Positions 2,688 to 52,184 of a stretch of DNA of 64,000 nt are shown one piece after another. Under the pieces are notes generated by a model. The model saw nothing but the letters and a program-made list of their open reading frames with translations, did not search any database and was not told where the DNA came from. The stretch lies in assembly GCA_021791445.1 (NCBI GenBank), contig JAJYWO010000010.1, forward strand, positions 1,304 to 65,303, written 5' to 3'. A program made the translations under genes and the position numbers. Position 1 is the first letter of the stretch; each line of letters opens with the position of its first letter. Source of the stretch: a bacterium (GTDB taxonomy: Bacteria; Patescibacteriota; Minisyncoccia; UBA6257; UBA9933).

Positions 2688-3488
2688 CTACGGTTGCCAT
2701 TTGGATGCTATAAAAACAATGACGCTGAAAAGCAGAATAATCGTCGCGTTTTTCAAGATAACTTGCCTGTTAAGGTCTCCCCGCAAATGGGAAACGGTCA
2801 AATCTTTCAAAACCAAAACCGCTGCCAGAGAAATGGCGGCGGAATTCAAAAACCCCACCGGCAAATAAGAAACCGCCAAAACAAACTGGGAAACCAGAGC
2901 CGCCAAACTGGCTGAAAAAAGATTAATATCGCGTCCCGGACGCGATATGATTGATTCGCGAAAAAGCAGAAAAAAAGACAAAACAGCCGAGGTATATCCC
3001 CAAAAAATCCATCCCGATGACTTATCGGCCATAAAAAAAATAATAAAAACCAAAAAGAAAACAAAATTATTCAGAAATTCATAAACAGAAGCGCGGTGAA
3101 TAAAAATCAGATTTTTTATCCCTAAAAAAGCGAAAAATGCCAAGCCGAAAACCGCGGCGACGACAAAATTCCACTTAACCGATTCTGCTGGCAAACGGCT
3201 GATTGTCAAAAGCGCGGCAATCAAAAAAATCAAAAAAGAAAAAAAATATTTTTTCGCTTCGAAAAAAGGCCTCAAATAAAAATAAAAAGCGAGCGCGATA
3301 AAAAGAAAAAACGCGCCGAAACTTCGGCTGTTGCCGAAAAACGCCAAAGCCAGCGAAAAAACAATCGCTTTACCCCCCGCGCTAAACAAGTTGCAATGAG
3401 AAAAAAATAAATTTTTAAAAAGCATAACAATAATAAGCAACCGCAAAATTATTTCTGAAACCTTAACGGAAGCGCAGCCCCGCTGCAA
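2688..3488 (-). CDS. Polytopic Phe-rich integral membrane protein of unknown function. The real start is probably the internal Met at 3425, because the upstream 60 nt belong to a repeat element
   Basis: Long hydrophobic ORF with at least 7 predicted TM segments. The N-terminal 21 codons (MQRGCASVKVSEII...) are also found translated from the repeat copy at 27541-27625. Confidence 0.55.
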   Translation of the reverse strand: MQRGCASVKVSEIILRLLIIVMLFKNLFFSHCNLFSAGGKAIVFSLALAFFGNSRSFGAFFLFIALAFYFYLRPFFEAKKYFFSFLIFLIAALLTISRLPAESVKWNFVVAAVFGLAFFAFLGIKNLIFIHRASVYEFLNNFVFFLVFIIFFMADKSSGWIFWGYTSAVLSFFLLFRESIISRPGRDINLFSASLAALVSQFVLAVSYLPVGFLNSAAISLAAVLVLKDLTVSHLRGDLNRQVILKNATIILLFSVIVFIASKWQP

Positions 3489-3528
3489 GCGGGGTGTGAG
3501 CGGGTTGAAGAAATAATTTTGCGGTTGC
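3437..3528. repeat. GC-rich hairpin element, copy 1. A 19-bp outer inverted repeat (gcaaccgcaaaattatttc / gaaataattttgcggttgc) encloses an inner GC hairpin (ccccgctgcaagcgggg). It sits immediately downstream of the clpB stop and is terminator-like
   Basis: Perfect inverted repeats read directly. About 85% identical over ~85 nt to the reverse complement of 27541-27625. Confidence 0.7.
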
Positions 3529-3538: not shown

Positions 3539-6178
3539 TTAAACGCCAATCGTAATGCCGGATTCTTTGAAACCGAGTTTAATTTTTTTAGCATCTTTAA
3601 GTTCGCCTTTGATTATTTTATTCGCCAATTCGTCAAGAATCAATTTTTGAATCGCTCTTTTAATGGGCCGGGCGCCGTATTCCGAATCAAAACCGACATC
3701 AATAATGCGCTCTTTAAGGGAATTGTCCACGCTGATTTTAAACCCGCGCCCCGCCAATCTCTCTTTAAGTTCATCCAGTTGAAGGTCAACTATTTTGCCG
3801 ATTTCCGCTTTGGTAAGAGGATTGAAAATAATTATTTCATCCAGCCGATTGAGAAATTCCGGACGAAAAGTTTCTTGCAAAGCTTCCTGCGCGCGCTGTT
3901 TGAAACGCTCAAGCGCCTTATTGGTCCCATCCGCCTCGCCGCCGACATCAAATCCAAAACCCGCTTTTGAAGCTTCTTTGAAATATTCGCTGCCGACATT
4001 GGAAGTCAAAACAATTATGGAGTTTTTGAAATTGACGGTTTTGCCCTTGCCATCGGTGAGCCGGCCGTTATCCAAAACCTGAAGCAAAAGATTAAAAACT
4101 TCGGGATGCGCTTTTTCTATTTCATCAAAAAGAATCAGACTGTACGGCCGATGCCTTACGATTTCGGTCAATTGGCCGCCTTCTTCGTGTCCCACATAGC
4201 CGGGAGGAGAACCGATAAGCCGGCTTACGCTGTGCCGCTCCATATATTCAGACATATCAATCCGCACCAGCGCTTTTTCGTCATTAAACATAAATTCCGC
4301 CAAAGCCCGCACCAATTCGGTTTTGCCGACTCCGGTCGGACCTAAAAACATAAAACTGCCCAAGGGCCGATCTTCCGGCGCGAGTCCGGCGCGCTGGCGA
4401 CGCAAAGCGTGGGCAATGGCTTTAATCGCGTCCGTTTGGCCGATTACTCTTTGAGAAAGAACTTCTTCTATTTTGGAAAGTTTTTCCATTTCGGTTTGCA
4501 GCATCTTGTCAGTCGGCACGCCGGTCCAACGCGAAACAACCGCGGCAATATCTTCCTCGTCAACCACTTCCTTAATAAAACTATCGGACTTATTGGCCTT
4601 ATAAGTCTTATTTTCATACGCCTTAAATTCTTTCTCCGCTTGCGGCAATTCGCCGTAAAGTATTCGGGCTGTTTTTTCCAGATTGCCTTCGCGTTCCGCC
4701 ATCTCGGCGTCGCGCTTCAAATCTTCCACGCGCTTGCGCAAATTCCTGAAATTCTCAAAAGTTATTTTTTCTCCTTGCCATTTACCGGAGAGCCCGTCAT
4801 TTTTTTCTTTTAATTTCGCCAATTCCTTCTCAACTTCTTTTAATCGTGTTTTTGTTTTAGTCCCATTTCTATTTGATTCATTCAAAAGCGCGGATTTTTC
4901 TATTTCCAAACGGGTAATTTCCCTTCTGATTTTATCTATTTCCCGCGGAATGCTTTCGCTTTCCAATCTTCTGCCGGCTCCGGCTTCGTCAATCAAATCA
5001 ATCGCCTTATCCGGTAAAAACCTGTCGCTGATATAGCGACTGGAAAGATTCACCGCCGCCACAATCGCTTCGTCGCTGATGCGCAAACCATGATGCGATT
5101 CGTATTTTTCTTTCAAGCCGCGCAAAATGGCAACACTGTCTTCAATGGACGGCTCATCAACCATAATAGGCGCGAAGCGGCGTTCCAAAGCTGAATCTTT
5201 TTCAATATAACGCTGGTATTCTCTTATTGTGGTGGCGCCGATGGCCCGAAGTTCGCCGCGCGCCAAAGCCGGCTTCAATAAATTGGAAGCGTCAACCGTT
5301 CCTTCGGCCGCGCCCGCTCCCACAATCATATGAATTTCGTCTATAAATAGAATAATCTTGCCGCCGGACTGCTGGATTTCTTTCATAAACGCTTTTAATC
5401 TGTCTTCAAACTCGCCGCGGAATTTCGTACCCGCGATAAGCGCGCCCAAATCAAGCATCACGATTTCTTTGCCCTTCAACGGTTCCGGCACGTCTCCAGA
5501 AACAATTCTCTGCGCCAAACCTTCCACCACCGCGGTTTTGCCGACTCCGGGTTCGCCGATTAAAACCGGATTATTTTTCGTGCGACGGCTCAAAACCTGA
5601 ATAAGCCGACGAAGCTCTTCTTCGCGGCCGATAACCGGGTCAAGCTCGCCTTTCTTGGCGCGCTCCGTAAGATTGATGGCGTATTTTTCCAAAACCTGGA
5701 ATTTGCTTTCCGGCGCTTCATCGGTAATTCTTGCGGAACCGCGCAGCTGCGCCAAAATCCGGACCGCGGTTTCCTTGCGCAATCCGAAATTTTCCATGAT
5801 CGCGGCGGAAACAGAATTGCTTTCCAGAATCGCCAAAAGCATATGCTCGCAGGAAATAAATTCATCTTTTTGAATTGAAGCGATTTTCGCGGCCCTGTCC
5901 AAAACCCGCATTAATTCCTGCGCCAGATAAAGCTGAGCCGCGCCTCCGCCGCCGAAAATTTTCGGCTGTTTTTTCAATTCCTCATGAAGAATCTGGCTTA
6001 AATTTTCCAGATTAATTCCCGCCTTGATTATCAGCGGCCTGATTAAAGAACTTTCGTCCGAAAGCAAAGAAATCAATAAGTGGATAATTTTAAGCTCCCC
6101 GTGGTTTTCGCGAGCCGCTATGTCCTGGGCGTTTTGCAGCGCCTCCTGGGCCTTGATTGTAAAACGATGCATTTGCAT
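3539..6178 (-). CDS. clpB: ClpB / Hsp104-type AAA+ disaggregase. The track ORF extends to 6283; the start is probably [14 protein letters not shown] at 6178
   Basis: Two AAA+ modules with Walker A motifs [10 protein letters not shown] and [10 protein letters not shown], a Clp N-domain, and a long coiled-coil M-domain between NBD1 and NBD2. Total length ~880 aa. Confidence 0.93.
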
Positions 6179-6211: not shown

Positions 6212-6259
6212 AAAAGTATAACATTTTATCGCCGATCGGCAACGATTTGTTATACTTTT
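6212..6259. repeat. 48-bp imperfect palindromic intergenic repeat, copy 1: AAAAGTATAACA...GCCGATCGGC...TGTTATACTTTT
   Basis: Sequence read directly. Related copies at 7633-7680 (exact reverse complement), 9359-9406 and 46169-46216. Confidence 0.8.
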
Positions 6260-6322
6260 ATCGATACGGCATATTATAATCAATGCTAAACAATTTTCAA
6301 GTTTTATGCTTAAATCTCTATT

Positions 6323-7642
6323 ATGAATAGAATCTATTTTGATTATGCGGCAACAACGCCTATGGACCCGCTAGTGAAAAAAGCGATGGCGCCTTATTTC
6401 TCCGATCGATTTGGAAATCCCGGCTCGCTTCACTCTTTCGGCCAAGAAGCCATGGCGATGGTTGACGAATCGCGCGAAAAAATCGCCAAAGCTGTTAATG
6501 CGGATTTTCGGGAAATAATTTTTACGGGATCGGCCACTGAAGCGAACAACTTGGCGCTGCGCGGCATTGTAAGGGCGGCTCGGCTATTTTCTGACGGAAC
6601 CGGGCGTTCGCTCGCTCCAGCGGCGAGCGCCGCCCTTGACCTCTCGGCGGCGCGCCTGCCTTCGGTAGACCAAGCGCGCGCCGCCTCCGAGACATTCCGC
6701 ACGAAAACAGCCGAGCCACCCTACAGAATTATAATTAGTAAAATAGAACACGATTCAATTTTGGAAACCGCGCGCGACCTTGAACGCGACGGCATTGAAG
6801 TAATCTATCTACCCGTCAATAAAAATGGGCTTATTGATTTAGAAAAACTGAAAAAATCGCTCAATGAGCGGACGATTTTGGTTTCCATAATGCACGCAAA
6901 TAATGAAATAGGGACTATCCAACCAATCGCGGAAATTGCGAAAATTATAAAACAATTCAAAAACAACAAAGAAAAATTTTTTTCGACCTATCCACTTTTT
7001 CACACTGACGCTGTCCAAGCTTTTCAATTCCTGAATTGCGACGTCAATAAACTCGGCGTTGATTTAATGACTTTATCCGCGCATAAAATTTACGGCCCAA
7101 AAGGAATCGGATGTTTATATGTAAAATCCCAAAATTCTAAATTCAATCCGCCAGCTGGCGGACTAAATCCAATTATCACCGGCGGCGGGCAAGAATTCGG
7201 CTTGCGCTCCGGCACGGAAAATGTTCCGGCAATCGCCGGATTCGCCAAAGCCATTGAACTCGTCTCTAATTCGCGCGAATTAGAGAATAAACGCGTTAAA
7301 CAACTTGCCGATTATTTTTGGGAAGAAATTAAAAAAATAGAGCCGAAAGCGGAAATAAATGGAATGTTAAATGCCAATAAATTGCCGAATATTTTAAACA
7401 TTTGTTTCCCCGGTCAGAATGCGCAAGATTTGCTGATAAAACTTGATTTGAACGGCGTGGCGGTTTCCAGCGGCTCGGCTTGTTCGGCGCGCGCCACCAA
7501 ACCGTCGCATGTTCTCAAAGCCATCGGCTTAAGCGACAAAAAAATTAAAAGCAGTTTGCGTTTTAGTTTGGGAAAATTCATGACCAAAAACGAATTAAAC
7601 CGCGCGCTCAAAATAATAAACAGGATATTAAAAAAAGTATAA
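6323..7642 (+). CDS. iscS: Cysteine desulfurase (NifS/IscS family, PLP-dependent) carrying a 47-codon GC-rich in-frame insertion
   Basis: PLP-lysine motif [12 protein letters not shown] and active-site Cys loop SSGSACSA. N-terminal region shows the aminotransferase class V pattern. Confidence 0.88.
6577..6717. repeat. 141-bp GC-rich palindromic element inserted in-frame within iscS. Its 15-bp terminal inverted repeats are ggctcggctattttc / gaaaacagccgagcc
   Basis: Sharp local GC jump. Length is divisible by 3. It encodes a low-complexity Ala/Ser/Arg stretch ([48 protein letters not shown]) where IscS homologues have a short loop. Shares the cgttcgctcgc motif with the element at 40504-40643. 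Confidence 0.65.
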
Positions 7643-7680
7643 CAAATCGTTGCCGATCGGCGATAAAATGTTATACTTTT
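7633..7680. repeat. 48-bp palindromic intergenic repeat, copy 2. It is the reverse complement of copy 1, so iscS is flanked by inverted copies
   Basis: Direct sequence comparison. Confidence 0.8.
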
Positions 7681-7686: not shown

Positions 7687-8091
7687 ATGAACATAAATAA
7701 AAAAATTGACGCTAAAATTTTTAAAGCCTATGATATTCGCGGCATTTATCCGGACGAAATAAACGAAGAAATTGTTTCGGAAATAATTGCGGCGGTCGTT
7801 AAAAATTTCAAACCGAAAAAAATTATTATCGGCCACGACGCCCGCCTAAGTTCGCCAAAACTTTATCAGGCGCTAATAAAGCAATTTAAAATTTTAAATT
7901 TAAAATTTAAAATTATACCCACCGGCTTAATAACAACTCCCATGCTTTATTTTTTGACAAACTATTCCAATGCCGACCTCGGCATAATGATTACCGCTTC
8001 ACACAATCCCAAACAATATAACGGCTTAAAAATCGTCGGCAAAAACGCCGTTCCTATAAGCGGAAAACAAATATGGAAAATAATTTCATAA
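7687..8091 (+). CDS. Phosphomannomutase/phosphoglucomutase, N-terminal domain I fragment carrying the active-site Ser in TASHNP
   Basis: TASHNP phosphoserine motif. The frame ends at 8091 while domains II-IV continue in another frame from 8073. Confidence 0.75.
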   Translation: MNINKKIDAKIFKAYDIRGIYPDEINEEIVSEIIAAVVKNFKPKKIIIGHDARLSSPKLYQALIKQFKILNLKFKIIPTGLITTPMLYFLTNYSNADLGIMITASHNPKQYNGLKIVGKNAVPISGKQIWKIIS

Positions 8092-9008
8092 AAATTTACG
8101 CCAATTTTCTTAAAAAAAGAATCCAGCCACAGAAAAAATTAAAGGTGGTTTTTGATTGTTCTAATGGCGCTGTGGGACCAACTATTAAAAAATTACAAAT
8201 TACAAATCCCAAATTACAAATTTATCTTATTAACGAAAAACCGGACGGCAATTTCCCCGGACACGGACCCGACCCCTGGGCAAAAGGCGCGATGGAACAG
8301 CTTCAAAAAGAAGTTTTGCGGCAAAAAGCGGATTTGGGAGTTATTTTTGACGCTGACGGCGATAGAGTTTTTTTTATTGATAATCTTGGCTGTCCTGTTG
8401 AGCCGGATATTATCGCGCGTTTATTGATTTGGCATTTAAAGCCGCGCAAGGCGGTTTATGATATTCGCGCCGGCTGGCTCATTAAAAAATTAAAAATTGA
8501 AAACTTAAAATTGAAAACTTCGCGGGTGGGGCATTTTTACATTAAAAAACTAATGCGGAAAATCGGCGCGGATTTGGGCGTGGAAAAATCCGGACATTAT
8601 TATTTTGCCATCCGAAACTTTGACAAAGGAGAATTATATTACGACTCCGGAATTTTGGCGGCAATTGAAATTATAAACGCGGTTTCGAAATTGCCTTACT
8701 CTTTGGCGAATTTCATTGATTTGCTGCCACAATATTATAGAAGCGGAGAAATCAACATAAAATCTCAAATCTTAAATCTCAAATCTCAAAAATTATTTAA
8801 AGAGATTGAAAGAAAACTTAAAATTCAAAATTTAAAATTTAAAATTAATGTTTCTCATCTCGACGGCCTAACAATGGAATTTTTGGATTATTGGTTTAAC
8901 ATTCGGCCGTCAAACACCGAACCTTTAATAAGATTAAACATGGAAGCTGAAGACAAAAAAATTTTAGAAAAAAAGAAAAAAGAGTTAATAAAACTTTTAA
9001 AGAATTAA
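8073..9008 (+). CDS. Phosphomannomutase/phosphoglucomutase domains II-IV (DADGDR metal-binding loop). Together with 7687..8091 this is one gene broken by a frameshift near 8060-8095
   Basis: FDADGDRVFF Mg-binding loop and C-terminal domain IV. Overlaps the preceding fragment by 19 nt in a different frame. Confidence 0.75.
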   Translation: MENNFIKIYANFLKKRIQPQKKLKVVFDCSNGAVGPTIKKLQITNPKLQIYLINEKPDGNFPGHGPDPWAKGAMEQLQKEVLRQKADLGVIFDADGDRVFFIDNLGCPVEPDIIARLLIWHLKPRKAVYDIRAGWLIKKLKIENLKLKTSRVGHFYIKKLMRKIGADLGVEKSGHYYFAIRNFDKGELYYDSGILAAIEIINAVSKLPYSLANFIDLLPQYYRSGEINIKSQILNLKSQKLFKEIERKLKIQNLKFKINVSHLDGLTMEFLDYWFNIRPSNTEPLIRLNMEAEDKKILEKKKKELIKLLKN

Positions 9009-9352
9009 AAAATATGCGGCCAAAAAACGATTAAGCCGATAACCATTGCGCCCAAACTCGCCAACAAAACTATGGCCGCCATTAAATCTTTGATAATTCT
9101 CACCTTGTCGCTGTATTCCGGTTGAAGAAAATCCAAAAGTCGCTCAATCGCGATATTTATCAACTCCAAAGTTAAAACCGCAAAAATGGCGGTGGTGATA
9201 ACGGCTTTTTCCGTTCGGCTGGTCGGAAAATAAAACATTAAAAACACGGCCAATAAAGCGAAAAACAGCATTATTTTGAAATTCCTTTCAAAAATAAGGG
9301 TTTCTTTTAAGCCGTTTACGGCGTATTTTAAGCTGTCGCGAAGTTTTTTCAT
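9005..9352 (-). CDS. dgkA: Diacylglycerol kinase / undecaprenol kinase (DgkA family), a small 3-TM protein
   Basis: Size ~115 aa with three TM segments. Family-like motifs ELINIAIERLLD and KDLMAAIVLLASL. Confidence 0.65.
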   Translation of the reverse strand: MKKLRDSLKYAVNGLKETLIFERNFKIMLFFALLAVFLMFYFPTSRTEKAVITTAIFAVLTLELINIAIERLLDFLQPEYSDKVRIIKDLMAAIVLLASLGAMVIGLIVFWPHIF

Positions 9353-9358: not shown

Positions 9359-9406
9359 TAAAGTATAACATTTTACTGCCGATCGGCAATGGAATGTTAT
9401 ACTTTT
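9359..9406. repeat. 48-bp palindromic intergenic repeat, copy 3
   Basis: AAAGTATAACATTTTACTGCCGATCGGCAATGGAATGTTATACTTTTT. Confidence 0.8.
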
Positions 9407-10239
9407 TCTTTCTTAAATTGTGTCAGTTTATAAAAATTCTCAAAAATTTTTGCCACTAAAATCGAACCGGTGCCGCCCGGAGTAGGAGTGTAAAAATTCA
9501 GTTTATTAGTTTGTAAGTTTGTAAGTTTGTAAGTTTCAAAATCGCCGGAAATTTCCCCCTCTTTGTTAAAACTATAACCGAAATCAATCACGCCGGCGCC
9601 GTTTTTCAGCATTTCCGGCTTTATTAAGCCGGCTTGGCCGACTCCGGAAATTATCAAATCGTAATTTTTCAAATCATTCAAATTACTGCCGCTTCTAAAA
9701 ATTTTCAATTCTTTAATTTTTTGATTCATCAACCAAACACTAATTGGCTTGCCGATTAAGAAGCCGGCGCCCACTATGGCAATTTTAACATCTGACAATT
9801 GACGCTTAACAACTGACAAAATTTCTTTTGTTGTTTCGACTGCCGGAGGCAATACTGGATTTCTGCCATTATAAAACGCGCCCAAAGCGCGCTCACCCAA
9901 AACATCAACATCTTTTTCTCGCGGAATGACATTTAAAATATAATGGCGGTTAATATGTTCCGGCAAAGGCAACTGAATAATCACTCCGCCGACTCTTTTC
10001 AATAAAGCGATTTTGCCGACTTCTTTTCGCAAGTCGTCGTTTTTCAATTTTGCCGGAAATTCATACATCCGAAAATCAATGCCGAGCTCCTTGGCGACCT
10101 TTTCTTTTTGTTTTAAAAAACTTTTTGATTGCGGATTGTCGCCGACCAAAACAGCCGCGAAAATTTTCTCCGGCTTCGGCTGTTTTTTCAATTCGTCAAT
10201 AATTTTTTGCGCGATTTTTTTCCCGTCAATAATTTGCAT
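9397..10239 (-). CDS. folD: Bifunctional methylenetetrahydrofolate dehydrogenase / methenyl-THF cyclohydrolase
   Basis: N-terminal MQIIDGKKIAQKI...AAVLVGDNPQS and a Rossmann GxGxxG-like VGAGFLIGKP. Carries an in-frame (gtttgtaa)x3 repeat at 9508-9536. Confidence 0.85.
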   Translation of the reverse strand: MQIIDGKKIAQKIIDELKKQPKPEKIFAAVLVGDNPQSKSFLKQKEKVAKELGIDFRMYEFPAKLKNDDLRKEVGKIALLKRVGGVIIQLPLPEHINRHYILNVIPREKDVDVLGERALGAFYNGRNPVLPPAVETTKEILSVVKRQLSDVKIAIVGAGFLIGKPISVWLMNQKIKELKIFRSGSNLNDLKNYDLIISGVGQAGLIKPEMLKNGAGVIDFGYSFNKEGEISGDFETYKLTNLQTNKLNFYTPTPGGTGSILVAKIFENFYKLTQFKKEKV

Positions 10240-10977: not shown

Positions 10978-11367
10978 TTAAATATTTTTATAATGTTTTA
11001 TTACATAATGATTATCTAAAAGTGTCAAGGCGATTAAGTCTATGCGCCAGCCTTTTTTGTCATCAACCAAATCTTGATTATGGCCGGCGTACAAAGACGC
11101 GGTTCTTTGGAGTTTTTGGAGTTTAGCGGCCGTAAGCTGGTCTTCGGCGGAAATGTGTTTATCATCGTTTTCCGTGTGTAATTTTTCCACTCCGCGAACG
11201 GTTTTTACTTCCACAAATACTAGGGTTCTATCCGGCGCTTTAACGATTATGTCTATCTCGCCCCACTTTTGCCGGAAATTCCGCTCAATCACCTTATATT
11301 TGTTTTTCACAAGATATCCACAGGCGATATTTTCGCCAAGTTGACCGGCGTAAGACCTCTGATTCAT
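10978..11367 (-). CDS. yraN: YraN family (UPF0102) endonuclease. The track start at 11472 is probably an artefact; the likely start is MNQRSYAGQLGEN at 11367
   Basis: GE.IA..YL...Y.V..RN.R...GEIDII....TLVFVEVK pattern typical of UPF0102. Confidence 0.7.
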   Translation of the reverse strand: MNQRSYAGQLGENIACGYLVKNKYKVIERNFRQKWGEIDIIVKAPDRTLVFVEVKTVRGVEKLHTENDDKHISAEDQLTAAKLQKLQRTASLYAGHNQDLVDDKKGWRIDLIALTLLDNHYVIKHYKNI

Positions 11368-11385
11368 ATAAGTTATGGTAAACCA

Positions 11386-11680
11386 TGTGTAATTTTTATA
11401 CAAGTAAAACGAGAAAGTGTTAAACAAAATAATGTTTAACAGTAACTTTTGTGTAATTTTTACACAAAACAAACGGCAAAAGCGTTAAACACTTAAATGT
11501 TTAACGCTAAGTTTGTGTAATTTTTACACACGTTTTTTGCCACCATTTAAAAACCCACATAAAATGCGTGTTTTTGAAAATGACCGTTTTTGATGTTTAA
11601 CACTTAAAAGTGTTAAACAAATATTTTGCGACAGATAAAGTGTTTAACACTTAGGCGTTAAACACTTTTTGTTTAACAGT
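11386..11680. repeat. Tandem array of ~64-bp units (11386, 11450, 11514, then degenerate). Each unit contains the palindrome TGTGTAAtttttTACACA, and the array also carries multiple GTTAAACA / TGTTTAAC inverted pairs
   Basis: Three TGTGTAATTTTTA(C/T)ACA sites exactly 64 bp apart. Units 1 and 2 align at ~75% identity. More than 10 GTTTAAC-type half-sites continue to 11680. Confidence 0.75.
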
Positions 11681-27540: not shown

Positions 27541-27625
27541 AAAATTATTTCTTTAACCCGCTCACGCTTCGCCTACGGCGGGACTGCGCTTCCGTTAAGG
27601 TTTCAGAAATAATTTTTCAATCGCT
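27541..27625. repeat. GC-rich hairpin element, copy 2 (reverse complement orientation of 3437-3528), between the convergent comM and M23-peptidase genes
   Basis: Shared string aaaattatttctgaaaccttaacggaagcgcag(c/t)cccgc ... gtgagcgggtt(g/a)aagaaataatttt. The central hairpin differs with compensating changes. Confidence 0.7.
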
Positions 27626-27629
27626 TTAT

Positions 27630-28316
27630 TTAGTTGGCCAAAGGGTTTTCCGCGCCGTGGATTTCAAAATGGAGGTGGCAGCCGGTCGGGCCGTAGGTGT
27701 TGCCGGTGCTGCCCATATAGCCGATAAGTTCTTTTTCTTTGACGTACTGGCCGATTTGCGCTTCGGCTTTTTCAAGGTGCGCGTAAAGGGTTTCAATACT
27801 GTTGGGATGTTCTATGGTAATGGAATTGCCATAGCCATTATTCCAGCTGTCATCATTTACAGCTTCAATGATTATGCCTTCTCTTGCCGCGTAAATCGGC
27901 GTGCCGCAGCGGTTGGCGATGTCAACAGCATTGAAAGCGTGCAGTTGTCCCCAATTCCAGCCGATGGTTGGCGGGGAAATCCTAAATTGACTCGGTTTTT
28001 TCTTTGATTTTTGGCTGATTGGGGAGTTGGCGGGATTAAGGCTGTCGGAAAGGATGTTTTGCGCCGGCTCTTCCGGAATTTCTTGGGCCATGGCGGCTGT
28101 TGCCAAAAGAGAATCCTGGCGAAGGCGCTGGTATTCCTCGCTCGGTCCGCCAAGGGTGTTTTGAGGGCTGGAAAAGGCTAAATCGCCTTTATTTAAAGCG
28201 AAATTTCCAATAATAACCGCTAAAATTAAAACTCCCCACCAGGCAGTGAGGCAGTGAATTTTGCGGAAAACTTGTTCGCCGACTGGCGAATTTGACCAAT
28301 ATTTGATTTTATCCAA
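27630..28316 (-). CDS. M23 (LytM-type) peptidoglycan endopeptidase with an N-terminal signal anchor. The track ORF runs to 28589 and overlaps uvrD on the other strand; the true start is uncertain (TTG 28316 is suggested)
   Basis: C-terminal LytM catalytic motif PTGCHLHFEIHGAENP plus the upstream NDDSWNNGYGNSITIEH. Confidence 0.8.
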   Translation of the reverse strand: MDKIKYWSNSPVGEQVFRKIHCLTAWWGVLILAVIIGNFALNKGDLAFSSPQNTLGGPSEEYQRLRQDSLLATAAMAQEIPEEPAQNILSDSLNPANSPISQKSKKKPSQFRISPPTIGWNWGQLHAFNAVDIANRCGTPIYAAREGIIIEAVNDDSWNNGYGNSITIEHPNSIETLYAHLEKAEAQIGQYVKEKELIGYMGSTGNTYGPTGCHLHFEIHGAENPLAN

Positions 28317-35699: not shown

Positions 35700-35800
35700 A
35701 TCGGCGTGGTATAATAAATAAGTCGAAAATTATGAATTAATGAGTTGTGAGTTAACGAATTAATCCGTTAACTCGTTAATTCGTTAATCAATAATAATTT

Positions 35801-41587: not shown

Positions 41588-41612
41588 ATGAAGGCCTCCG
41601 CAAGGCCTTCAT
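41588..41612. terminator. Bidirectional terminator hairpin GAAGGCCTCCGCAAGGCCTTC between the convergent xerC and copA genes. Identical to 11688-11710
   Basis: Perfect hairpin flanked by A/T runs. Confidence 0.7.
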
Positions 41613-43789
41613 TTGTAATATTTCATTGTTAGCGCGCTTAAGACCACACTCACCGAGGAAAACGCCATTGCCGCGGCGGCGATAGCCGGATTAAGCAGCC
41701 AGCCGAAAAACGGGTAAAGGATGCCGGCGGCAATCGGGATGCCGGCGATGTTGTAAAAGAAAGCCCAGAAAAGATTTTGTTTGATTTTTCGCAATGTGTA
41801 AGCGCTTAAATTAATGGCGGAGATGGCGTCGCGTAAATCGTTTTTAACCAGAATAATCTGGCCGCTTTCAATGGCGATGTCCGAACCCGAACCGACTGCA
41901 ATTCCCAAATTGGCTTGCGTTAAGGCCGGCGCGTCGTTGATGCCGTCGCCGACAAAAGCCACGATTTCTCCCTGCGCTTGCAGGTTTTTTATTTCCTGCG
42001 ATTTTTCCTGAGGCAGGACTTCAGCCAATATTTTTTCTATGCCAAGCTGTTTGGCAATGGCTTCAGCGGTTCTTTTATTGTCGCCGGTAATCATCGCCGT
42101 TTTTTTGCCGGCCTCGCGCAGTTTTTTAACGGCTTCAATGGAAGTTTCTTTAAGCGTGTCCGCCGCGGCGATTAAGCCGATTATTTCTTTGTCTGCGGCG
42201 AGAATCATCACGGTTTTCCCTTGTTGTTCCAAATTTGAGATATTTTTTTCAATTTCATCGCTTATATTTATATTGAAACCGGCCATTAAATTTTTATTGC
42301 CGATTAAAATTTTTTGATTTTTAATTTCCCCTTTTGCTCCTTTTCCCGGAATCGCCTCAAAATTTTCAACTTCAAACAATCCCAGATTGTTTTTTTTCGC
42401 CTCGTCAACAATCGCTTGCGCCAAGGGATGTTCGGATTTTTTCTCCAAACTCGCCGCCAGTTTTAAAACATCGTTTTTTGCAATTTCCATAATATCCGTT
42501 ACTGTCGGTTCGCCGCGGGTCAAAGTTCCGGTTTTGTCAAAAACAACCATAGTGATTTTTTTGGCGATTTCCAAAGCGTCGGCGCTTTTGATTAAAATTC
42601 CTTTTTGCGCCGCTAAGCCCGTTCCCATCATTATCGCCGTGGGAGTCGCCAAGCCCAAGGCGCAGGGGCAGGCGATAATCAAAACCGTGACAAAAATCAC
42701 TAAGCTGAATGTGGCGCTTTGTCCAGTTAAAAACCAGATAATGGCGGCCAACACAGCGATAGCAATAACACTGGGCGTGAAATACAGCGAGATTTTATCA
42801 ACCAAAAGCTGAATCGGCGCTTTTGATTCCATAGCTTCCTGAACCACTTTGATGATTTGCGCCAAAATCGTATCTTTGCCAATTCTTTTCGCTTCAATTT
42901 TCAGAAAGCCGGTTTTATTGATGGTCGCGCCGATAACATCGTCTCCAACTTTTTTTTCAACCGGAATGCTTTCGCCGGTAATCATTTTTTCGTCAACTCC
43001 CGAATATCCTTCAATGACTTTGCCGTCAACCGGAATTTTTTCTCCGGGCTTTACCAAAACAATATCGCCGATTTTTATTTCCGCGATGTTGATTTTTATT
43101 TCTTTGCCGTCTCTTATGATAACCGCTTCCTTCGGTTGGAGGCCGATGAGTTTTTTAATCGCCTCGTTAGTTTTGCCTTTGGTTTTGGCTTCAAGATATT
43201 TGCCGAGGGCGATGAAAATCAGAATCAAAGCCGCGCTTTCAAAATACAAATCTCCGGAAACCGATAATACTAAAATAATCAGGCTGTAAAAATAAGCCAC
43301 GGCAGTGCCGATGAAAATCAAAGAATCCATATTGGGCATAAACCGGAGCAAGCTTTTAAATCCCGATTTCCAAATGTCAAAACAAGCGGCGATAATCGCG
43401 GTTGCCAAAACAAGCTGAATAATATCACTTGCTTGTTTTGCCAAGGGCAATTTTGGCAATCCGACAAGCGACGCCATTACAGCGTAAATAATCGGCAAGC
43501 CGAAAATAAGCGAAAAAACAAAGCGGTTTCTCAATTTTTTCGCCGGTTCTTCGGGATGATGGTGCTCGTGGTCTATTTCGTTTTCTTCCATCGCTCCGTA
43601 GCCGAGTTCGCCGATGATTTTTTTAATCGTGTCTTTGCCGATTTTTTTCTCGTCAAATTCAATACTGGCTTTTTCCGAAGCAAAATTCACGCCGGCATTT
43701 TTTATACCCTCGGTTTTTTTCAAAACGTGTTCAATGTTGGCGGCGCACGACGCGCAATCCATATCGGTAATTTTGAGAATTGTTTTCAT
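41609..43789 (-). CDS. copA: Copper-translocating P1B-type ATPase
   Basis: N-terminal HMA motif [14 protein letters not shown] in TM6 ([12 protein letters not shown]), [15 protein letters not shown]. Confidence 0.93.
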
Positions 43790-43795
43790 ATTATT

Positions 43796-44827
43796 TTATA
43801 TTCCGCAGCCGCTTTGTTGCTGAGGAGCCGGAGCGCTGTCAATGCCGCAGCCGCTTCCGCCGGAAGATTTTTGGGTTTTCGCGGTTTGCGAAGAGATTTT
43901 TCTGTATCCGGACGCGCTGGAATAATCAGCTCCGAGAATTTCAATTGGATCAACATTTTCCCATTCAATTCCTTTATTTTTCATATAAGTCGCGATGGTG
44001 AGATAAGTGTCCGGAAACCAGTAGGAATTTACGGCCAAAGCCGCATTCCACATTTCTTGTTCGCTCGCGTTTTGCGAAGCCATCAGCTCCAGAAGTCCAA
44101 GCATCGCCATCCCGTGGTTGCAATCCGGAAAATGCGTTGAATTGCCGCAGCACGGCCGGTAAACGCCTTTGGAAACTTTTTCCACCAGTGCCTGTTGTTC
44201 GTCGGTCAATTCAAGAAGCCGGTGCTTGCTGTAATGTTCCATTGCGTTTCCCTTGGCGATTGTCCATCCAGCGGTTGAGGCGAAATTTTCGGCTCCGCCG
44301 TAGCGCGGGTCCGCCATTTCTCCGTTTTCCAGAATCGGATTTTTGTTTGCCAAGCCGAGCGCCCACAGCAGATTCAGCAGATATCCGGAATTTTCATTTG
44401 TTATTCTGAGTTTGCCGTTGTTTTTCCCGAGGAGCAGATTCTCGTATTCTTTGGCGAACGCGTCGCGCTGTTCGTATATTGATTTGAATTTGTCGGCGTC
44501 AATGGCGCCTGAATTCACGAGTTGAAGTCCGAGATCGCCCCAGACAGCGGGCAAAACAACGCCTTCGGACGGCAGAACTTTTTCTTCAAGTTCGGAAATT
44601 GTTGTTTCGGAGACGGAGGCATTTTGCGTTTTCGGCAGGGTGCCGGATTTCAGTCCTACGGAATACACCCATGTTCCGGAAATCAATATCGCTGAAATAA
44701 GAATGCTTGTGCCGATGCCGATATTGAAGCCCGAGGATTTTTCCGCGCCGGCGTTTTGAATTGTTTCTTCCGCGTTTTGCGCTTGCACATCTTCAATTAT
44801 TTGATTTTGATTTTTTTGTTCTTCCAT
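43796..44827 (-). CDS. Membrane-anchored Cys-containing protein (CCGNSTHFPDCNHG, C-terminal SGCGIDSAPAPQQQSGCGI). Possibly a metal/thiol-redox partner in the copA operon
   Basis: ORF, single N-terminal TM. Position in the operon 46124->41609. Confidence 0.45.
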   Translation of the reverse strand: MEEQKNQNQIIEDVQAQNAEETIQNAGAEKSSGFNIGIGTSILISAILISGTWVYSVGLKSGTLPKTQNASVSETTISELEEKVLPSEGVVLPAVWGDLGLQLVNSGAIDADKFKSIYEQRDAFAKEYENLLLGKNNGKLRITNENSGYLLNLLWALGLANKNPILENGEMADPRYGGAENFASTAGWTIAKGNAMEHYSKHRLLELTDEQQALVEKVSKGVYRPCCGNSTHFPDCNHGMAMLGLLELMASQNASEQEMWNAALAVNSYWFPDTYLTIATYMKNKGIEWENVDPIEILGADYSSASGYRKISSQTAKTQKSSGGSGCGIDSAPAPQQQSGCGI

Positions 44828-44835
44828 AAGTTTAT

Positions 44836-45618
44836 TTAGAAAGCGAAAATGGCGATGCCGAGAATAATCATGGCAATGCCACTGATCGTTTTCATTTGTT
44901 TATTATTGACTCTTTTCCATTCCATCACTTTTTCCGTAAGAGATTTATCGCTGGTTATCAGCAGAATCGCGACAAGCGGAAGAATGAAAATCAGATTGTA
45001 CAGCAGAAGATAGCCGATTCCGGAATAATAAGTGTTCTGGTCATGAAGCAGTCCTAGCACCATCAGATACGGGCCGCCGGTGCAGGGAAATTCGCAGAGC
45101 CCGACAAGGACGCCCAGAAAAAACGCGGCCAATAAGGACGTTTTATCCATAAGTTCCGCCATTTTATTGTGCGCGATTTTCGGAATTTTTATTCTTATCG
45201 GAAACGATGGAAACAGCGCGCTTATGGCGCTTATCGCTCCGACGGCGATTAGAAGGACTGCTCCGACTTTTGCCATAAAATGCGGTGTGTTGAAAAGATG
45301 GAGAACCTGCAGAATTCCGAGCCCAATAAGGACATAAACGGCGAGAATTCCCAAAATGTAAAACCCTCCGATTTTCAAAATATCCGAACGCGTTTTTTCG
45401 ATGGTGAAAAGAAAAGCGATTGTCAGGAGCAGGATTGAAAACGCGCAGGGATTGACGCTGTCAATTATCGCCGCAACGCTTACGAGCGGCAGAAGCCATT
45501 TGCCGTGATCGCTTATATTCCACAAGGCGGCTGTTCCAATATTGCTTTCTTTCAGAAATATTGCCGCGCCGAAAACTAACAATGCGATTGCGGAAATAAA
45601 TATCAGTTTTTTGCTCAT
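44836..45618 (-). CDS. ccdA: Cytochrome c biogenesis / thiol-disulfide transporter CcdA (DsbD transmembrane domain family)
   Basis: Paired Cys in TM segments (SVNPCAFS and CEFPCTGGPY), 6-8 TM topology. Confidence 0.8.
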   Translation of the reverse strand: MSKKLIFISAIALLVFGAAIFLKESNIGTAALWNISDHGKWLLPLVSVAAIIDSVNPCAFSILLLTIAFLFTIEKTRSDILKIGGFYILGILAVYVLIGLGILQVLHLFNTPHFMAKVGAVLLIAVGAISAISALFPSFPIRIKIPKIAHNKMAELMDKTSLLAAFFLGVLVGLCEFPCTGGPYLMVLGLLHDQNTYYSGIGYLLLYNLIFILPLVAILLITSDKSLTEKVMEWKRVNNKQMKTISGIAMIILGIAIFAF

Positions 45619-46124
45619 TATGGAGTTACAACGGCGGTTAATTGAAGTTCAATCGGGTCGCCCGCGTTGTTTTCAATTATTACCGCCCTTTGGATTTTGC
45701 CAACGCCGGCCGGACCATGCGCCGCCGGGTCAAAAACGGCTTCTATTGTCGCTTCTTCGTTGGAATCGATTATCTGATTTATCACCGGAATAACGCCATG
45801 GCCGGGCATTCCGTAAGGCCCCATTTTTTTGCCCTTAATCATAAGTTCGGCGGTTGTGCACATGCACGAAGTGTATATCTTGCTTATAGTCGTTGCTTCA
45901 TTTCCGTTATTTTTAATTTTAAAATCGTATTTTACTTTTCCGGCGGTCATTGAAATTTCGCCGAAATCATAATTATTAACTCCTTCAACAACCAATGTTC
46001 CGTTATTTTGCGCCGGAATCGCGGATTTGTTTTTTCCGCTGCTCTGCTGTTTTGGTTCCGCGAACCAGATGATTCCGCCGAGCAGCGCGGCCGCGACAAC
46101 GGCGCTGATGACAATTTTGTTCAT
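45618..46124 (-). CDS. Secreted DUF1573-family protein
   Basis: YDFGEI...G......F.IKNNGN..L.I..V..SCMCT pattern. Confidence 0.6.
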   Translation of the reverse strand: MNKIVISAVVAAALLGGIIWFAEPKQQSSGKNKSAIPAQNNGTLVVEGVNNYDFGEISMTAGKVKYDFKIKNNGNEATTISKIYTSCMCTTAELMIKGKKMGPYGMPGHGVIPVINQIIDSNEEATIEAVFDPAAHGPAGVGKIQRAVIIENNAGDPIELQLTAVVTP

Positions 46125-46168: not shown

Positions 46169-46216
46169 AAAGTATAACATTTTATTGTCGATCGTCGACG
46201 AAATGTTATACTTTTT
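46169..46216. repeat. 48-bp palindromic intergenic repeat, copy 4
   Basis: AAAGTATAACATTTTATTGTCGATCGTCGACGAAATGTTATACTTTTT. Confidence 0.75.
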
Positions 46217-47280: not shown

Positions 47281-47469
47281 AAGAATTAAGAAAAATATGG
47301 AACCTAAAATAAATTTTTGGGAATTTTGCGCGCGTGTATACGAAATTTACAAGTATATAATAATTACCGGGTTTAGTTAGTTTAGTTATGGACTTATTCC
47401 CGCCAGAGGCGGACAGGCGCGCGAATAGTGGAATAATAAGAAATAAAATAAAAAATTTGTAAAATGAAT

Positions 47470-50618: not shown

Positions 50619-50691
50619 TTCTTAAAAACAAACAGCGGTTTTCAGCCGCTGAAAAATAAGATAGAAAAATTTAGAAATGAGGAGGTAAATC
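50561..50691 (+). promoter_or_regulatory. Conserved promoter + leader element, copy 2 (TTGACT at 50571-50576). Leader hairpin cagcgg-ttttcag-ccgctg, then aaaataagatagaaaa, then SD gaggaggtaa
   Basis: See copy 1. Confidence 0.75.
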
Positions 50692-52162: not shown

Positions 52163-52184
52163 TCATAGATCATTTGTTGATCTC

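What the first reader, a model, noticed from the sequence alone, without database searches (positions are those of the whole stretch)
6212..7680. Family of ~48-bp palindromic intergenic repeats; two copies bracket iscS in inverted orientation
AAAGTATAACAtttta..GCCGATCGGC..aaaTGTTATACTTT occurs at 6212-6259, 7633-7680, 9359-9406 and 46169-46216. The first two are exact reverse complements of each other and flank the cysteine desulfurase gene (6323..7642), giving a cassette-like arrangement. The copies sit in promoter-side and terminator-side intergenic spaces alike, so they act more like REP/MITE-type elements or a global operator than a gene-specific site. Only the conserved arms AAAGTATAACA / TGTTATACTTT are constant.
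Basis: seen in the sequence. Interest (0 to 1): 0.55.

Follow-up and report, generated by a model that had tools for sequence, protein, structure and literature searches.

The report
Palindromic promoter-operator of a PaaX-like repressor
The four 48-bp palindromes are most likely combined promoter and repressor-binding sites for a small PaaX-like regulator found across the ultra-small Patescibacteria (CPR) bacteria, where the same site also precedes the chaperone and protease genes grpE-dnaK, clpB and htrA, so they point to an undescribed stress regulon rather than to a mobile repeat.

Summary
There are four copies of AAAGTATAACA-N24-TGTTATACTTT, each with a central CGATCG. Copies 1 and 2 are exact 48-nt reverse complements around iscS.

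The REP/MITE and "iscS cassette" readings are not supported:
- There are no target-site duplications.
- Whole MAGs hold only 1-4 exact copies.
- The gene order clpB<>iscS-pgm-dagK-folD is kept in relatives that lack copy 1, or copies 1 and 2.

Each window copy carries TTGCCG (TCGACG in copy 4)-16 nt-TGtTATACT, a sigma-70 -35 plus extended -10. This promoter faces clpB, pgm, dagK or a metal-ATPase operon. In two cases the -10 sits 9 nt before the ATG, as in other leaderless genes of this genome.

The same 38-40 bp palindrome occurs in many Patescibacteria. Its commonest neighbour is a roughly 200-aa protein with a winged helix and a PaaX Cas2-like domain. Starting from seven homologues of that protein, chosen without reference to the motif, 7/7 have a CGATCG-centred palindrome just upstream and 6/7 a second one just downstream. 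These often precede grpE-dnaK-dnaJ or clpB. E. coli PaaX binds TGATTC-N27-GAATCA, which spans about the same length.

Best reading: a promoter-embedded operator of a PaaX-like repressor that controls a proteostasis-type regulon. Binding and heat induction are inferred, not shown.

The parts
6212..6259 (-). Copy 1. A 48-bp palindromic promoter-operator module between the divergent genes clpB and iscS. The better promoter faces clpB: -35 TTGCCG at 6242-6237, a 16-nt spacer, then TG + TATACT at 6220-6215 on the minus strand.
   Evidence: Sequence. The promoter scan picks TTGCCG-16-TATACT with an upstream TG on the minus strand. The site is absent from the syntenic relatives L006 and L052 as a clean 80-nt indel.
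7633..7680 (+). Copy 2. The exact reverse complement of copy 1. -35 TTGCCG at 7650-7655 and TG + TATACT at 7672-7677. The pgm ATG (7687) lies 9 nt after the -10. The iscS stop codon (7640-7642) lies inside the distal arm.
   Evidence: A degenerate copy sits at the same iscS-pgm junction in L052 and is absent in L006.
9359..9406 (-). Copy 3. -35 TTGCCG at 9389-9384 and TG + TATACT at 9367-9362 on the minus strand. The dagK ATG (9352) lies 9 nt after the -10. The folD stop codon (9397-9399) lies inside the distal arm.
   Evidence: The motif is conserved at the orthologous dagK-folD gap in L006, L042 and L052, where DagK is 89% and FolD 77% identical.
46169..46216 (-). Copy 4. It lies upstream of a minus-strand operon: DUF1573 (45618-46124), an SfLAP-like membrane protein, a 343-aa protein, and a heavy-metal P-type ATPase (41609-43789). 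Its centre is GTCGATCGTCGAC. The -35-like hexamers are TCGACG on the minus strand and TTGTCG on the plus strand.
3539..6178 (-). clpB, a disaggregase chaperone and the putative target of copy 1.
   Evidence: Pfam hits to Clp_N, AAA, AAA_2 and ClpB_D2-small. The protein is 84% identical to L006 ClpB and 78% to L077 ClpB. In L077, clpB follows the regulator gene plus a palindrome.
6323..7642 (+). iscS-like cysteine desulfurase, bracketed by copies 1 and 2. Probably a bystander. It has its own TATAAT at 6275-6280, which is conserved in relatives that lack the palindrome.
   Evidence: Pfam Aminotran_5. Intergenic comparison.
7687..9008 (+). Phosphoglucomutase/phosphomannomutase, read as two overlapping ORFs (7687-8091 and 8073-9008). 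Putative target of copy 2.
   Evidence: Pfam PGM_PMM_I to IV.
9005..9352 (-). Diacylglycerol kinase (dagK), putative target of copy 3.
   Evidence: Pfam DAGK_prokar.
41609..46124 (-). Four-gene operon (DUF1573 through a heavy-metal P-type ATPase), putative target of copy 4.
   Evidence: Pfam hits. The ORFs are tightly packed.

Best explanation
Each 46-48 bp palindrome is a self-contained promoter plus operator.

The outer arms (TGTTATACT on either strand) match the extended -10 element this organism uses. The central palindrome (TTGCCGATCGGCAA) supplies a -35-like hexamer 16 bp upstream of each -10. The inner asymmetry, a better -35 and TAAAATG on one side, gives each copy a preferred direction. 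In the window that direction points at clpB, pgm, dagK and a metal-ATPase operon. pgm and dagK would be made as leaderless or near-leaderless mRNAs.

The dyad symmetry exists because the site is bound by a dimeric PaaX-like repressor of about 200 aa. This protein has a winged helix-turn-helix and a Cas2-like dimerisation domain, and lacks the PaaX effector domain. Its gene lies elsewhere in this genome. By analogy with PaaX, its two DNA-binding heads would contact half-sites about three helical turns apart. That would cover the -10 and -35 elements and block RNA polymerase.

Across Patescibacteria the regulator gene is itself flanked by two such sites, which implies autoregulation. The sites also precede grpE-dnaK-dnaJ, clpB and htrA. 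The system therefore most likely works as a stress or proteostasis repressor-operator pair, functionally like HrcA/CIRCE or HspR/HAIR, with lineage-specific extra targets.

Shown: the sequence anatomy, the conservation, the gene association and the protein family. Inferred: physical binding, repression, the inducing signal, and which bases the protein contacts.
For: 1. Promoter anatomy. A consensus scan picks TTGCCG-16-TATACT with an upstream TG at copies 1, 2 and 3, each time on the strand that faces the downstream gene.

2. House promoter style. Other genes in the window have TGnTAnAAT 6-9 nt before the ATG. Examples are lnt with TGTTATAAT, folD with TGTTAAAAT, and dnaG and xerC with TAAAAT or TATAAT. 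The arm therefore matches the organism's own -10, and the 9-nt gap to the pgm and dagK ATGs fits leaderless starts.

3. Conservation. The same architecture, GTATAACA-N8/9-CGATCG-N8/9-TGTTATAC, occurs in 9 loci from 4 Patescibacteria MAGs and in 42 metagenome loci with 35-56% GC.

4. Regulator association. The commonest neighbour is a protein with a wHTH and a PaaX_M domain. It accounts for 15 of 110 flanking ORFs and 9 of 36 distinct sites. It is flanked by two copies in L037, L055, L070 and H52-bin056.

5. Reverse test. All 7 have a 38-42 bp CGATCG-centred palindrome 10-90 bp upstream, and 6 of 7 have another just downstream. In about 144 kb of sequence, every such palindrome lies within about 1.1 kb of that gene.

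6. Co-variation with the protein. The arms change with the regulator lineage (GTATAACA, GTGTAATA, TATAGCAC, TTTCATCAT, TTAGCAAGA) together with the putative recognition helix.

7. Targets. These are grpE-dnaK(-dnaJ) in L005, L022, L031, L037, L041, L076 and L082; clpB in the window and L077; and htrA in L011/L075.

8. Family and geometry. Pfam PaaX_M scores E 1e-16 to 1e-24. The best PDB hit by profile and by fold is E. coli PaaX 8A39. The published PaaX site is TGATTC-N27-GAATCA, spanning 39 bp, against 38-40 bp here (PMC9493321).

9. Constraint on the centre. GATC is five-fold depleted in the window, yet all four copies keep it at their centre.
Against: - No homologue of the regulator is encoded in the 64-kb window, and the rest of this genome could not be retrieved. 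Its presence is inferred from the syntenic relative H52-bin056.
- About 5 of 31 classifiable distinct sites lie between convergent genes (L001, L045, L053, L059, L064), where there is nothing to promote.
- Very different regulator subfamilies (L055 type and L045 type, about 25% identity) pair with the same GTATAACA arms. This fits the arms being -10 elements better than TF-specific half-sites.
- The whole 40-48 bp, including spacer positions, co-varies to stay palindromic. This is more than most operators show and would also fit a hairpin.
- Many targets are not chaperones: pgm, dagK, ksgA, a NUDIX gene and a DNA glycosylase gene.
- Most sites come from pattern searches that fixed the arms and the centre, so the consensus is partly circular. 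Only the reverse test is unbiased.
- No binding or expression data exist.
Confidence: 0.6

Rival explanations
1. The element acts mainly as an RNA hairpin. It would be a bidirectional intrinsic terminator, or an mRNA 3'-end stabiliser, placed between genes. The promoter-like hexamers would then be incidental.
For: - The RNAs fold into 12-22 bp hairpins of -17 to -30 kcal/mol, with z-scores of -5 to -11, flanked by an A-run and a U-run.
- The iscS and folD stop codons lie inside the distal arm, so the hairpin would sit at the 3' end of those mRNAs.
- Some copies lie exactly between convergent stop codons, for example L001, L035 and L048 at 2 and 5 nt from the stops.
- Compensatory changes occur at 20 of 22 pairs. 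85% of cells are paired, against 67.5% when shuffled.
Against: - Terminators do not keep a specific sequence (arms plus CGATCG loop) across a phylum and across 35-56% GC.
- Copy 1 and several other sites (L020, L060, L011, L075, L056) lie between divergent gene starts, where no transcript ends.
- The U-tract on the side that would terminate the upstream gene is only 3-4 U in copies 2-4. High-GC lineages have no U-tract at all.
- The terminator scan did not flag the copies.
- This reading does not explain the tight link to the regulator gene.
- Quasi-palindromes can become perfect palindromes through template-switch mutation without any selection for a hairpin (established knowledge, not tested here).
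Confidence: 0.15
2. It is a REP/MITE-like mobile palindrome. The gene flanked by two copies would be its mobilising protein, through a Cas2-like nuclease fold, analogous to REP elements around RAYT genes.
For: - The regulator gene is bracketed by two copies in nearly every lineage, as RAYT genes are bracketed by REPs.
- Copies are gained and lost between close relatives. Copy 1 is a clean 80-nt indel, and copy 2 is present in L052 but absent in L006.
- Copies 1 and 2 are 48/48 identical, even at positions that otherwise vary.
- Some copies lie in convergent gaps.
Against: - There are no target-site duplications, and the 80-nt insert has no terminal inverted repeats.
- Whole MAGs hold only 1-4 exact copies.
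- Sites and the flanked gene are syntenic across distant lineages: cysS-dnaB<>regulator-grpE-dnaK.
- The protein's best matches are the repressor PaaX, not a transposase. No HUH or DDE domain is present.
- There were no viral-contig hits.
Confidence: 0.08
3. It is simply a strong symmetric (bidirectional) sigma-70 promoter with no dedicated regulator. It would be palindromic because two back-to-back promoters share overlapping -35 boxes.
For: - Both strands carry an extended -10, and in many copies a TTGACG, TTCACG or TTGCCG hexamer 15-16 nt upstream.
- The arms equal the house -10.
- The same arms occur with very different regulator subfamilies.
Against: - Most copies have a gene on one side only, so the second promoter would drive antisense RNA into iscS, folD or the regulator gene.
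- In high-GC lineages the centre (GCCACGATCGTGGC) is not -35-like, yet it is conserved.
- Only 4 of roughly 30 transcription units in the window use it, and none of them is a ribosomal or other typically highly expressed gene.
- This reading does not explain the near-exclusive placement around one regulator gene in the reverse test.
Confidence: 0.12

Closest known systems
PaaX repressor and its operator (E. coli, Pseudomonas; phenylacetate catabolon)
   Same: The associated protein has the winged-helix and PaaX central Cas2-like domain architecture (Pfam PF20803). Its best match in the PDB is E. coli PaaX 8A39, by both sequence profile and fold. The operator type also matches: two inverted half-sites roughly three helical turns apart, spanning about 39 bp (TGATTC-N27-GAATCA, PMC9493321), overlapping promoters, and the regulator gene sitting behind its own site.
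   Different: The protein lacks the PaaX C-terminal effector domain, at about 200 aa against 316 aa. It carries a roughly 60-aa N-terminal extension of low predicted confidence. It is not next to paa genes. The half-site sequences differ. There is a strongly conserved central CGATCG that has not been described for PaaX. The targets are chaperones and proteases, not aromatic catabolism genes.
HrcA/CIRCE and HspR/HAIR heat-shock repressor-operator systems
   Same: The regulator gene sits directly upstream of grpE-dnaK(-dnaJ), the position hrcA holds in Firmicutes. The operator is an inverted repeat that overlaps the promoter and is repeated before dnaK-operon, clpB and protease genes. It can also form a hairpin in the mRNA, as CIRCE does.
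   Different: The proteins are unrelated (not HrcA, not MerR-type HspR). The sequence is unrelated, and no CIRCE was found in the window even with 3 mismatches. The palindrome is much longer (38-48 bp) and contains the -10 and -35 elements themselves. Heat induction is untested.
REP/BIME elements with RAYT transposases, and MITEs
   Same: Short extragenic palindromes in several copies. One gene is bracketed by two copies. Copies turn over between relatives.
   Different: There are few copies per genome, no HUH or DDE enzyme, no target-site duplications, conserved orthologous positions, and promoter geometry.
Bidirectional promoters and propagated ("mobile") promoters in bacteria (from memory: Warman et al. 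2021; Matus-Garcia et al. 2012)
   Same: A symmetric promoter sequence readable on both strands. Identical promoter copies (48/48 nt) sit upstream of unrelated genes (clpB and pgm).
   Different: In the described bidirectional promoters the two -10 elements overlap. Here the two -35-like hexamers overlap and the -10 elements lie 32 bp apart. In addition, a dedicated regulator gene is linked to the site.

Membership tests
PaaX-family repressor/operator pair | The cognate protein has an N-terminal winged HTH plus the PaaX central Cas2-like domain. | tested here: met
   PF20803 scores E 3e-16 to 9e-24, above the gathering cut-off. A profile search of the PDB gives PaaX 8A39 as the best hit. The Foldseek top hit is also 8A39 (E 3.7e-4, probability 0.99), followed by Rv0674 and Cas2 proteins. 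The wHTH itself matches Pfam only weakly.
PaaX-family repressor/operator pair | The operator consists of two inverted half-sites separated by about 27 bp, for a total span of about 39 bp. | tested here: met
   The sites are 8-nt arms separated by 22-24 nt, spanning 38-40 bp, in 58 instances. The published PaaX site is TGATTC-N27-GAATCA (PMC9493321).
PaaX-family repressor/operator pair | A C-terminal effector domain that binds phenylacetyl-CoA, with linkage to paa catabolic genes. | tested here: not met
   The proteins are 176-223 aa and end after the Cas2-like domain. TIGR02277 scores 27-47 bits against a cut-off of 264. The neighbouring genes are grpE-dnaK, clpB and ksgA, not paa genes.
PaaX-family repressor/operator pair | The protein physically binds the site and represses transcription. 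| not testable with these tools
   Only positional and co-variation evidence is available.
REP/BIME (RAYT-associated) | Tens to hundreds of copies per genome. | tested here: not met
   The exact-arm scan of one genome per species found 4, 3, 1 and 1 copies in the four Patescibacteria MAGs that have any. These are lower bounds, because exact arms were required and the MAGs are incomplete.
REP/BIME (RAYT-associated) | An associated HUH (Y1) transposase gene flanked by the repeats. | tested here: not met
   The flanked gene is the PaaX-like protein, which has no HUH domain.
MITE | Terminal inverted repeats with target-site duplications, and a related autonomous element. | tested here: not met
   The flanks of the four copies share no duplication. 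The 80-nt indel that carries copy 1 has no TIRs and at most a trivial AT microhomology.
HrcA/CIRCE | The operator TTAGCACTC-N9-GAGTGCTAA. | tested here: not met
   There were 0 matches in the window with up to 3 mismatches, and the motif sequence is unrelated.
Sigma-70 extended -10 promoter | A TGnTATAAT-like -10, with or without a TTGACA-like -35 at 16-18 nt, at a suitable distance from the gene start. | tested here: met
   TTGCCG-16-TATACT with TG is found at copies 1-3 on the gene-facing strand. Other genes in the window show the same -10 style and spacing to the ATG. Transcription start sites were not measured.
Rho-independent terminator | A stable GC-rich hairpin followed directly by a U-tract at a gene's 3' end. 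| tested here: inconclusive
   The hairpins are -17 to -22 kcal/mol, but the outer stem is AU-rich and only 3-5 U follow. The terminator scan did not report them. Copy 1 lies between two gene starts.
Known structured RNA (Rfam) | A match to a curated covariance model. | tested here: not met
   Only tRNA-Arg reached the gathering score in the window.

The most novel reading that the evidence does not exclude
The short PaaX-like protein and its 38-48 bp CGATCG-centred palindrome could be the main proteostasis or heat-shock repressor-operator system of the Patescibacteria (CPR). It would be a non-orthologous replacement of HrcA/CIRCE. The operator is built out of the promoter's own -35 and -10 elements, so the whole promoter-plus-operator can be copied as a 48-bp unit to recruit new genes into the regulon. 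Here that would apply to clpB and pgm, whose copies are 48/48 identical. Paralogous regulators with altered arms (the ksgA/T4SS-linked type) would form a family of such modules.
Probability: 0.35. Interest if true: 0.72.

Novelty: new variant of a known kind. Interest (0 to 1): 0.56.

Why it matters
Gene regulation in the Patescibacteria/CPR is almost uncharted. In the library searched, the only comparative regulon work that surfaced was on LexA, and no paper linked PaaX-like proteins, this motif or a heat-shock regulator to the group.

If the reading holds, three things follow:
- It gives a concrete and testable regulator-operator pair for chaperone and protease control in a huge, mostly uncultivated radiation.
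- It re-annotates a family of more than 870 proteins that are currently unnamed or mislabelled (several named entries are called Cas2).
- It offers a compact example of an operator fused with its promoter that can be duplicated to rewire a regulon.

It also provides a sequence handle for predicting promoters and leaderless transcripts in these genomes.

Tried and rejected
- Rfam scan of the whole window: only tRNA-Arg was found, so this is no known RNA family.
- CIRCE search with 3 mismatches: no match.
- Target-site duplications or TIRs around the four copies and around the 80-nt indel: none.
- Regulator gene, grpE or dnaK in the window: absent by tblastn and by profile HMM on six-frame ORFs.
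- Retrieving the rest of this genome: one end protein is not on record. The other is found only on fragmented contigs under 9 kb from two NCBI assemblies (GCA_023474725.1 and GCA_027339105.1), which carry no copy of the motif.
- Viral contigs: 0 matches.
- Of the 33 genome hits to the bare arm pattern, 24 come from Firmicutes, Bacteroidota and other phyla. They lack the CGATCG centre and were set aside as unrelated hairpins.
- Testing hairpin against protein-site symmetry by covariation: the covariation is strong but does not discriminate between the two. The wobble-pair fraction among non-Watson-Crick cells, about one third by my own tally, is not clearly above expectation.
- Literature: nothing on this motif or on PaaX-like regulators in CPR. 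The del Peso-Santos 2006 paper could not be opened.
- The AF2 model is poor for residues 1-61 (pLDDT below 50). No conclusion was drawn about the N-terminal extension.
Full report
**1. Observation**

- The arm AAAGTATAACA occurs exactly eight times, as four palindromic pairs. With one mismatch allowed there are 14 hits against 1.3 expected, and no shuffle reached that number.
- A relaxed version of the whole pattern was never found in 20 shuffles of the window.
- Copies 1 and 2 are exact reverse complements over 48 nt.
- Beyond the arms, all four copies share a central CGATCG. One inner flank is always ATTTTA, so the element is not fully symmetric and has a direction.

The window has 40.6% GC. 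It carries dnaA/dnaN, rpoD, ftsK and other housekeeping genes, and its relatives are Patescibacteria MAGs.

**2. Anatomy in the window**

Gene context (for the ATPase):
- Copy 1 lies between the divergent starts of clpB (3539-6178, minus strand) and iscS (6323-7642).
- Copy 2 lies between iscS and a phosphoglucomutase-type gene (ATG at 7687).
- Copy 3 lies between folD (9397-10239, minus) and dagK (9005-9352, minus).
- Copy 4 lies upstream of a minus-strand operon running from a DUF1573 gene (45618-46124) to a heavy-metal P-type ATPase (41609-43789).

Promoter features:
- In all four copies the TAAAATGTTATACTTT side faces a gene start.
- A consensus scan reports TTGCCG-16 nt-TATACT with an upstream TG at copies 1, 2 and 3, each time on the gene-facing strand.
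- At pgm and dagK the ATG follows the -10 by 9 nt.
- Other genes of this genome have the same layout: TGTTATAAT 6 nt before the lnt-like gene, TGTTAAAAT before folD, and TAAAAT or TATAAT 7 nt before dnaG and xerC. The arm is therefore the organism's own extended -10, and leaderless mRNAs appear common.
- The iscS and folD stop codons lie inside the distal arm.

As RNA, the copies fold into hairpins of -17 to -22 kcal/mol, with z-scores of -5 to -8, followed by 3-5 U.

**3. The family outside the window**

Genome scan. An exact-arm scan of one genome per species gave 33 loci.
- Nine of them, from four Patescibacteria MAGs, share the CGATCG centre and the same spacing.
- The other 24, from other phyla, do not, and are unrelated hairpins.
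- Copies per MAG were 4, 3, 1 and 1.

Metagenome scan. A scan with GTATAACA-N8-10-CGATCG-N8-10-TGTTATAC gave 42 loci with 35-56% GC, in two main spacing classes of 38 and 40 nt. After removing duplicates there are 36 distinct sites.

The neighbour gene. The commonest neighbouring gene encodes a 176-223 aa protein. It accounts for 15 of 110 flanking ORFs and 9 of 36 distinct sites.
- It has a winged helix and the PaaX central Cas2-like domain (PF20803, E 1e-16 to 1e-24).
- It is only a weak match to full-length PaaX.
- This gene is flanked by two copies in L037, L055, L070 and H52-bin056. It is often followed by grpE-dnaK.
- The family has at least 871 members. All named members in the listing are annotated as Patescibacteria lineages apart from one "Spirochaetota" MAG. 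The few source names are "hypothetical protein", "PaaX", "PadR family regulator" or "Cas2".

**4. Reverse test**

To avoid circularity I took seven homologues of that protein, chosen only for lying on long contigs, and read their surroundings.
- All seven have a 38-42 bp palindrome with a central (C)GATCG 10-90 bp upstream of the start codon.
- Six of the seven have another palindrome just downstream.
- In about 144 kb of sequence, every CGATCG-centred palindrome found lies within about 1.1 kb of this gene.
- The arms differ by lineage: GTATAACA, TGTAACA, GTGTAATA, TATAGCAC, CATAACA, TTTCATCAT and TTAGCAAGA. They always stay complementary, and they keep a TGnTAnnnT-like shape.
- The putative recognition helix is NSARTILWRLQKKGLV in the (G/A/C)TATAACA and TGTAACA types, with only K-to-E (CATAACA type) and K-to-R (L060) changes in the ...LQKKGLV segment. 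It is altered in the others.

Three conserved gene contexts appear:
- cysS-dnaB<>regulator-grpE-dnaK-x-dnaJ.
- regulator-ksgA followed by a type IV secretion-like cluster.
- iscS<>regulator-clpB, in L077, whose ClpB is 78% identical to the window's.

An HtrA-type protease (Trypsin_2 + PDZ) follows the site in L011/L075.

**5. What the protein is**

- A profile of 31 family members finds E. coli PaaX (8A39) as the best solved relative (E 1.2e-3).
- An AlphaFold2 model (mean pLDDT 62, Cas2-like part 84-89) has 8A39 as its top Foldseek hit (E 3.7e-4, probability 0.99). Rv0674 and Cas2 proteins follow.
- A review states that E. coli PaaX binds TGATTC(N27)GAATCA, competes with RNA polymerase at the Px and Pz promoters, and represses its own promoter (PMC9493321).
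- That operator has two inverted half-sites spanning 39 bp. The sites here span 38-40 bp.
- The CPR proteins lack the PaaX effector domain and are not near paa genes. They are a short, distinct branch of the family rather than PaaX orthologues.

**6. Mechanism proposed**

The palindrome is a promoter whose -10 (arms) and -35-like (centre) elements are also the binding site of a dimeric PaaX-like repressor.
- Occupancy would exclude RNA polymerase.
- Two half-sites are needed for binding. This explains why the palindrome is kept even where only one side has a gene.
- The regulator sits between two sites, which implies autoregulation.
- The recurring targets grpE-dnaK-dnaJ, clpB and htrA make a proteostasis or heat-shock role the most likely. 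This is analogous to HrcA/CIRCE and HspR/HAIR, but with unrelated parts. No CIRCE is present in the window.

Which bases are contacted is open. The centre is the most conserved part across lineages, and the arms vary with lineage. However, two very divergent subfamilies keep GTATAACA arms, which may simply reflect -10 conservation.

**7. What argues against, and the rivals**

Points against the proposed mechanism:
- No regulator gene lies in the window, and the rest of the genome was not retrievable.
- About five of 31 classifiable distinct sites lie between convergent genes.
- The whole element, spacers included, co-varies to stay palindromic. 85% of cells are paired, against 67.5% when shuffled and 35-46% when slid, and 20 of 22 pairs show double changes. 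This would also fit selection for a hairpin, or template-switch "correction" of quasi-palindromes.

Terminator or stabiliser role. This may coexist with the operator role, but as the main function it fails for three reasons:
- Some sites lie between divergent gene starts, where no transcript ends.
- A specific sequence is conserved across the phylum.
- High-GC lineages have no U-tract.

REP/MITE reading. This fails on several counts:
- Copy number is low.
- There are no TSDs or TIRs.
- No transposase is associated.
- The sites are syntenic across lineages.
- There were no viral hits.

Plain bidirectional promoter. This reading does not explain the exclusive link to one regulator gene.

**8. 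The iscS "cassette"**

Relatives L006/L042 (ClpB 84% identical) and L052 keep the order orf266-clpB<>iscS-pgm-dagK-folD.
- Copy 3 is conserved in all of them.
- Copy 2 is present in degenerate form in L052 and absent in L006.
- Copy 1 is absent in both, as a clean 80-nt indel next to a conserved older TATAAT promoter.

So iscS did not move. Promoter-operator modules were gained or lost around it. The 48/48 identity of copies 1 and 2 points to a recent duplication or to gene conversion. In L077 the regulator gene sits exactly between iscS and clpB, flanked by two sites. Loss of that gene by recombination between its flanking palindromes would leave the single site seen at copy 1. This scenario is speculative.

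**9. Novelty and verdict**

Nothing in the searched literature describes this motif, a PaaX-like regulator in CPR, or a CPR heat-shock regulator.

The thing itself, a repressor operator overlapping a promoter, is a known kind. New here are:
- the protein branch;
- the promoter-in-operator design with a conserved CGATCG centre;
- the phylum-wide link to chaperone genes;
- its apparent spread as a unit.

I rate it a new variant of a known kind, of moderate to good interest. Confidence is 0.6 in the operator reading and lower in the heat-shock assignment.

Noticed in passing
window, whole; cluster at 52161-52226: GATC is five-fold depleted in the window: 42 sites against 210 +/- 13 in dinucleotide-preserving shuffles. 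This suggests a GATC-targeting restriction system or some other counter-selection. Even so, all four palindromes keep GATC at their centre, and they account for 4 of the 7 CGATCG sites in the window. Four GATC sites cluster within 65 nt at 52161-52226.
   Followed up: partly
window 7687-8091 and 8073-9008; L006 5104-5532 and 5525-6475: The phosphoglucomutase/phosphomannomutase gene is read as two overlapping ORFs in different frames (domain I, then domains II-IV). The same split occurs in the relative H52-bin056. It is therefore a conserved split gene or a programmed frameshift, not a sequencing error.
   Followed up: partly
window 7876-7915, 8184-8223, 8481-8520, 8754-8793, 33970-34009: A roughly 40-nt A/T-rich repeat family (ATTAAAAAATTACAAATTACAAAT...) lies inside coding sequence, four times in the PGM ORFs and once in dnaG. 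It appears to encode K/F/Q/I/L/N-rich low-complexity inserts. A similar 'NSKFQIP' repeat is seen in a Mur-ligase-like ORF of L038.
   Followed up: no
window 57602-57637; L080 3703-3742: A perfect 36-bp GC-rich palindrome (TTGCGACACTTCGTGCGGCCGCACGAAGTGTCGCAA) lies between the convergent spermidine-synthase-like and Lnt-like genes. A related palindrome occupies the same position in a contig from another assembly (L080). It may be a bidirectional terminator or the operator of a different regulator.
   Followed up: no
window 11419-11668: Three or four copies of an inverted repeat, GTTAAACA-N6-TGTTTAAC, lie in the 250-bp gap upstream of the minus-strand ORF 10978-11472. This looks like a separate operator array.
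   Followed up: no
window 35752-35787: A 36-bp palindrome, TTAACGAATTAATCCGTTAACTCGTTAATTCGTTAA, lies in the 101-nt gap between rpoD (34455-35699) and the DUF5667 gene (35801-37186).
   Followed up: no
window 47469-47577, 50563-50671, 53120-53228; 3426-3520 versus 27541-27635: A 109-nt direct repeat occurs in three copies (89% identity between the first and third), near two radical-SAM genes. Separately, a 95-nt inverted repeat (83% complementary) links the 3' end of orf266 with the ORF after the ComM-like gene. Neither was examined.
   Followed up: no
window gene starts, e.g. 10239, 32682, 40664, 59153: Many genes have a TGnTAnAAT-type -10 element ending 6-9 nt before the ATG and no Shine-Dalgarno sequence, which suggests widespread leaderless mRNAs. 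Other genes (10646, 50692, 53256, 60069) have a clear GGAGG.
   Followed up: partly
L076 16920-16957 and 16983-17020; L083 496-533 and 855-892: Other 38-bp palindromes with different centres (CACAATTGTG, CACTAGTG, GCTATCGC) sit in intergenic gaps of Patescibacteria contigs. Roughly 38-40 bp palindromic sites may be a general regulatory format in this group.
   Followed up: no
L078, L079, L083, L084 (10001 onward): A paralogous branch of the PaaX-like regulator, with altered palindrome arms, is always followed by ksgA (RrnaAD) and then a type IV secretion-like cluster (TrbL, PrgI, TraC-like, VirB4-like). L079 has extra copies of its palindrome inside ksgA, at 10871 and 11165.
   Followed up: partly
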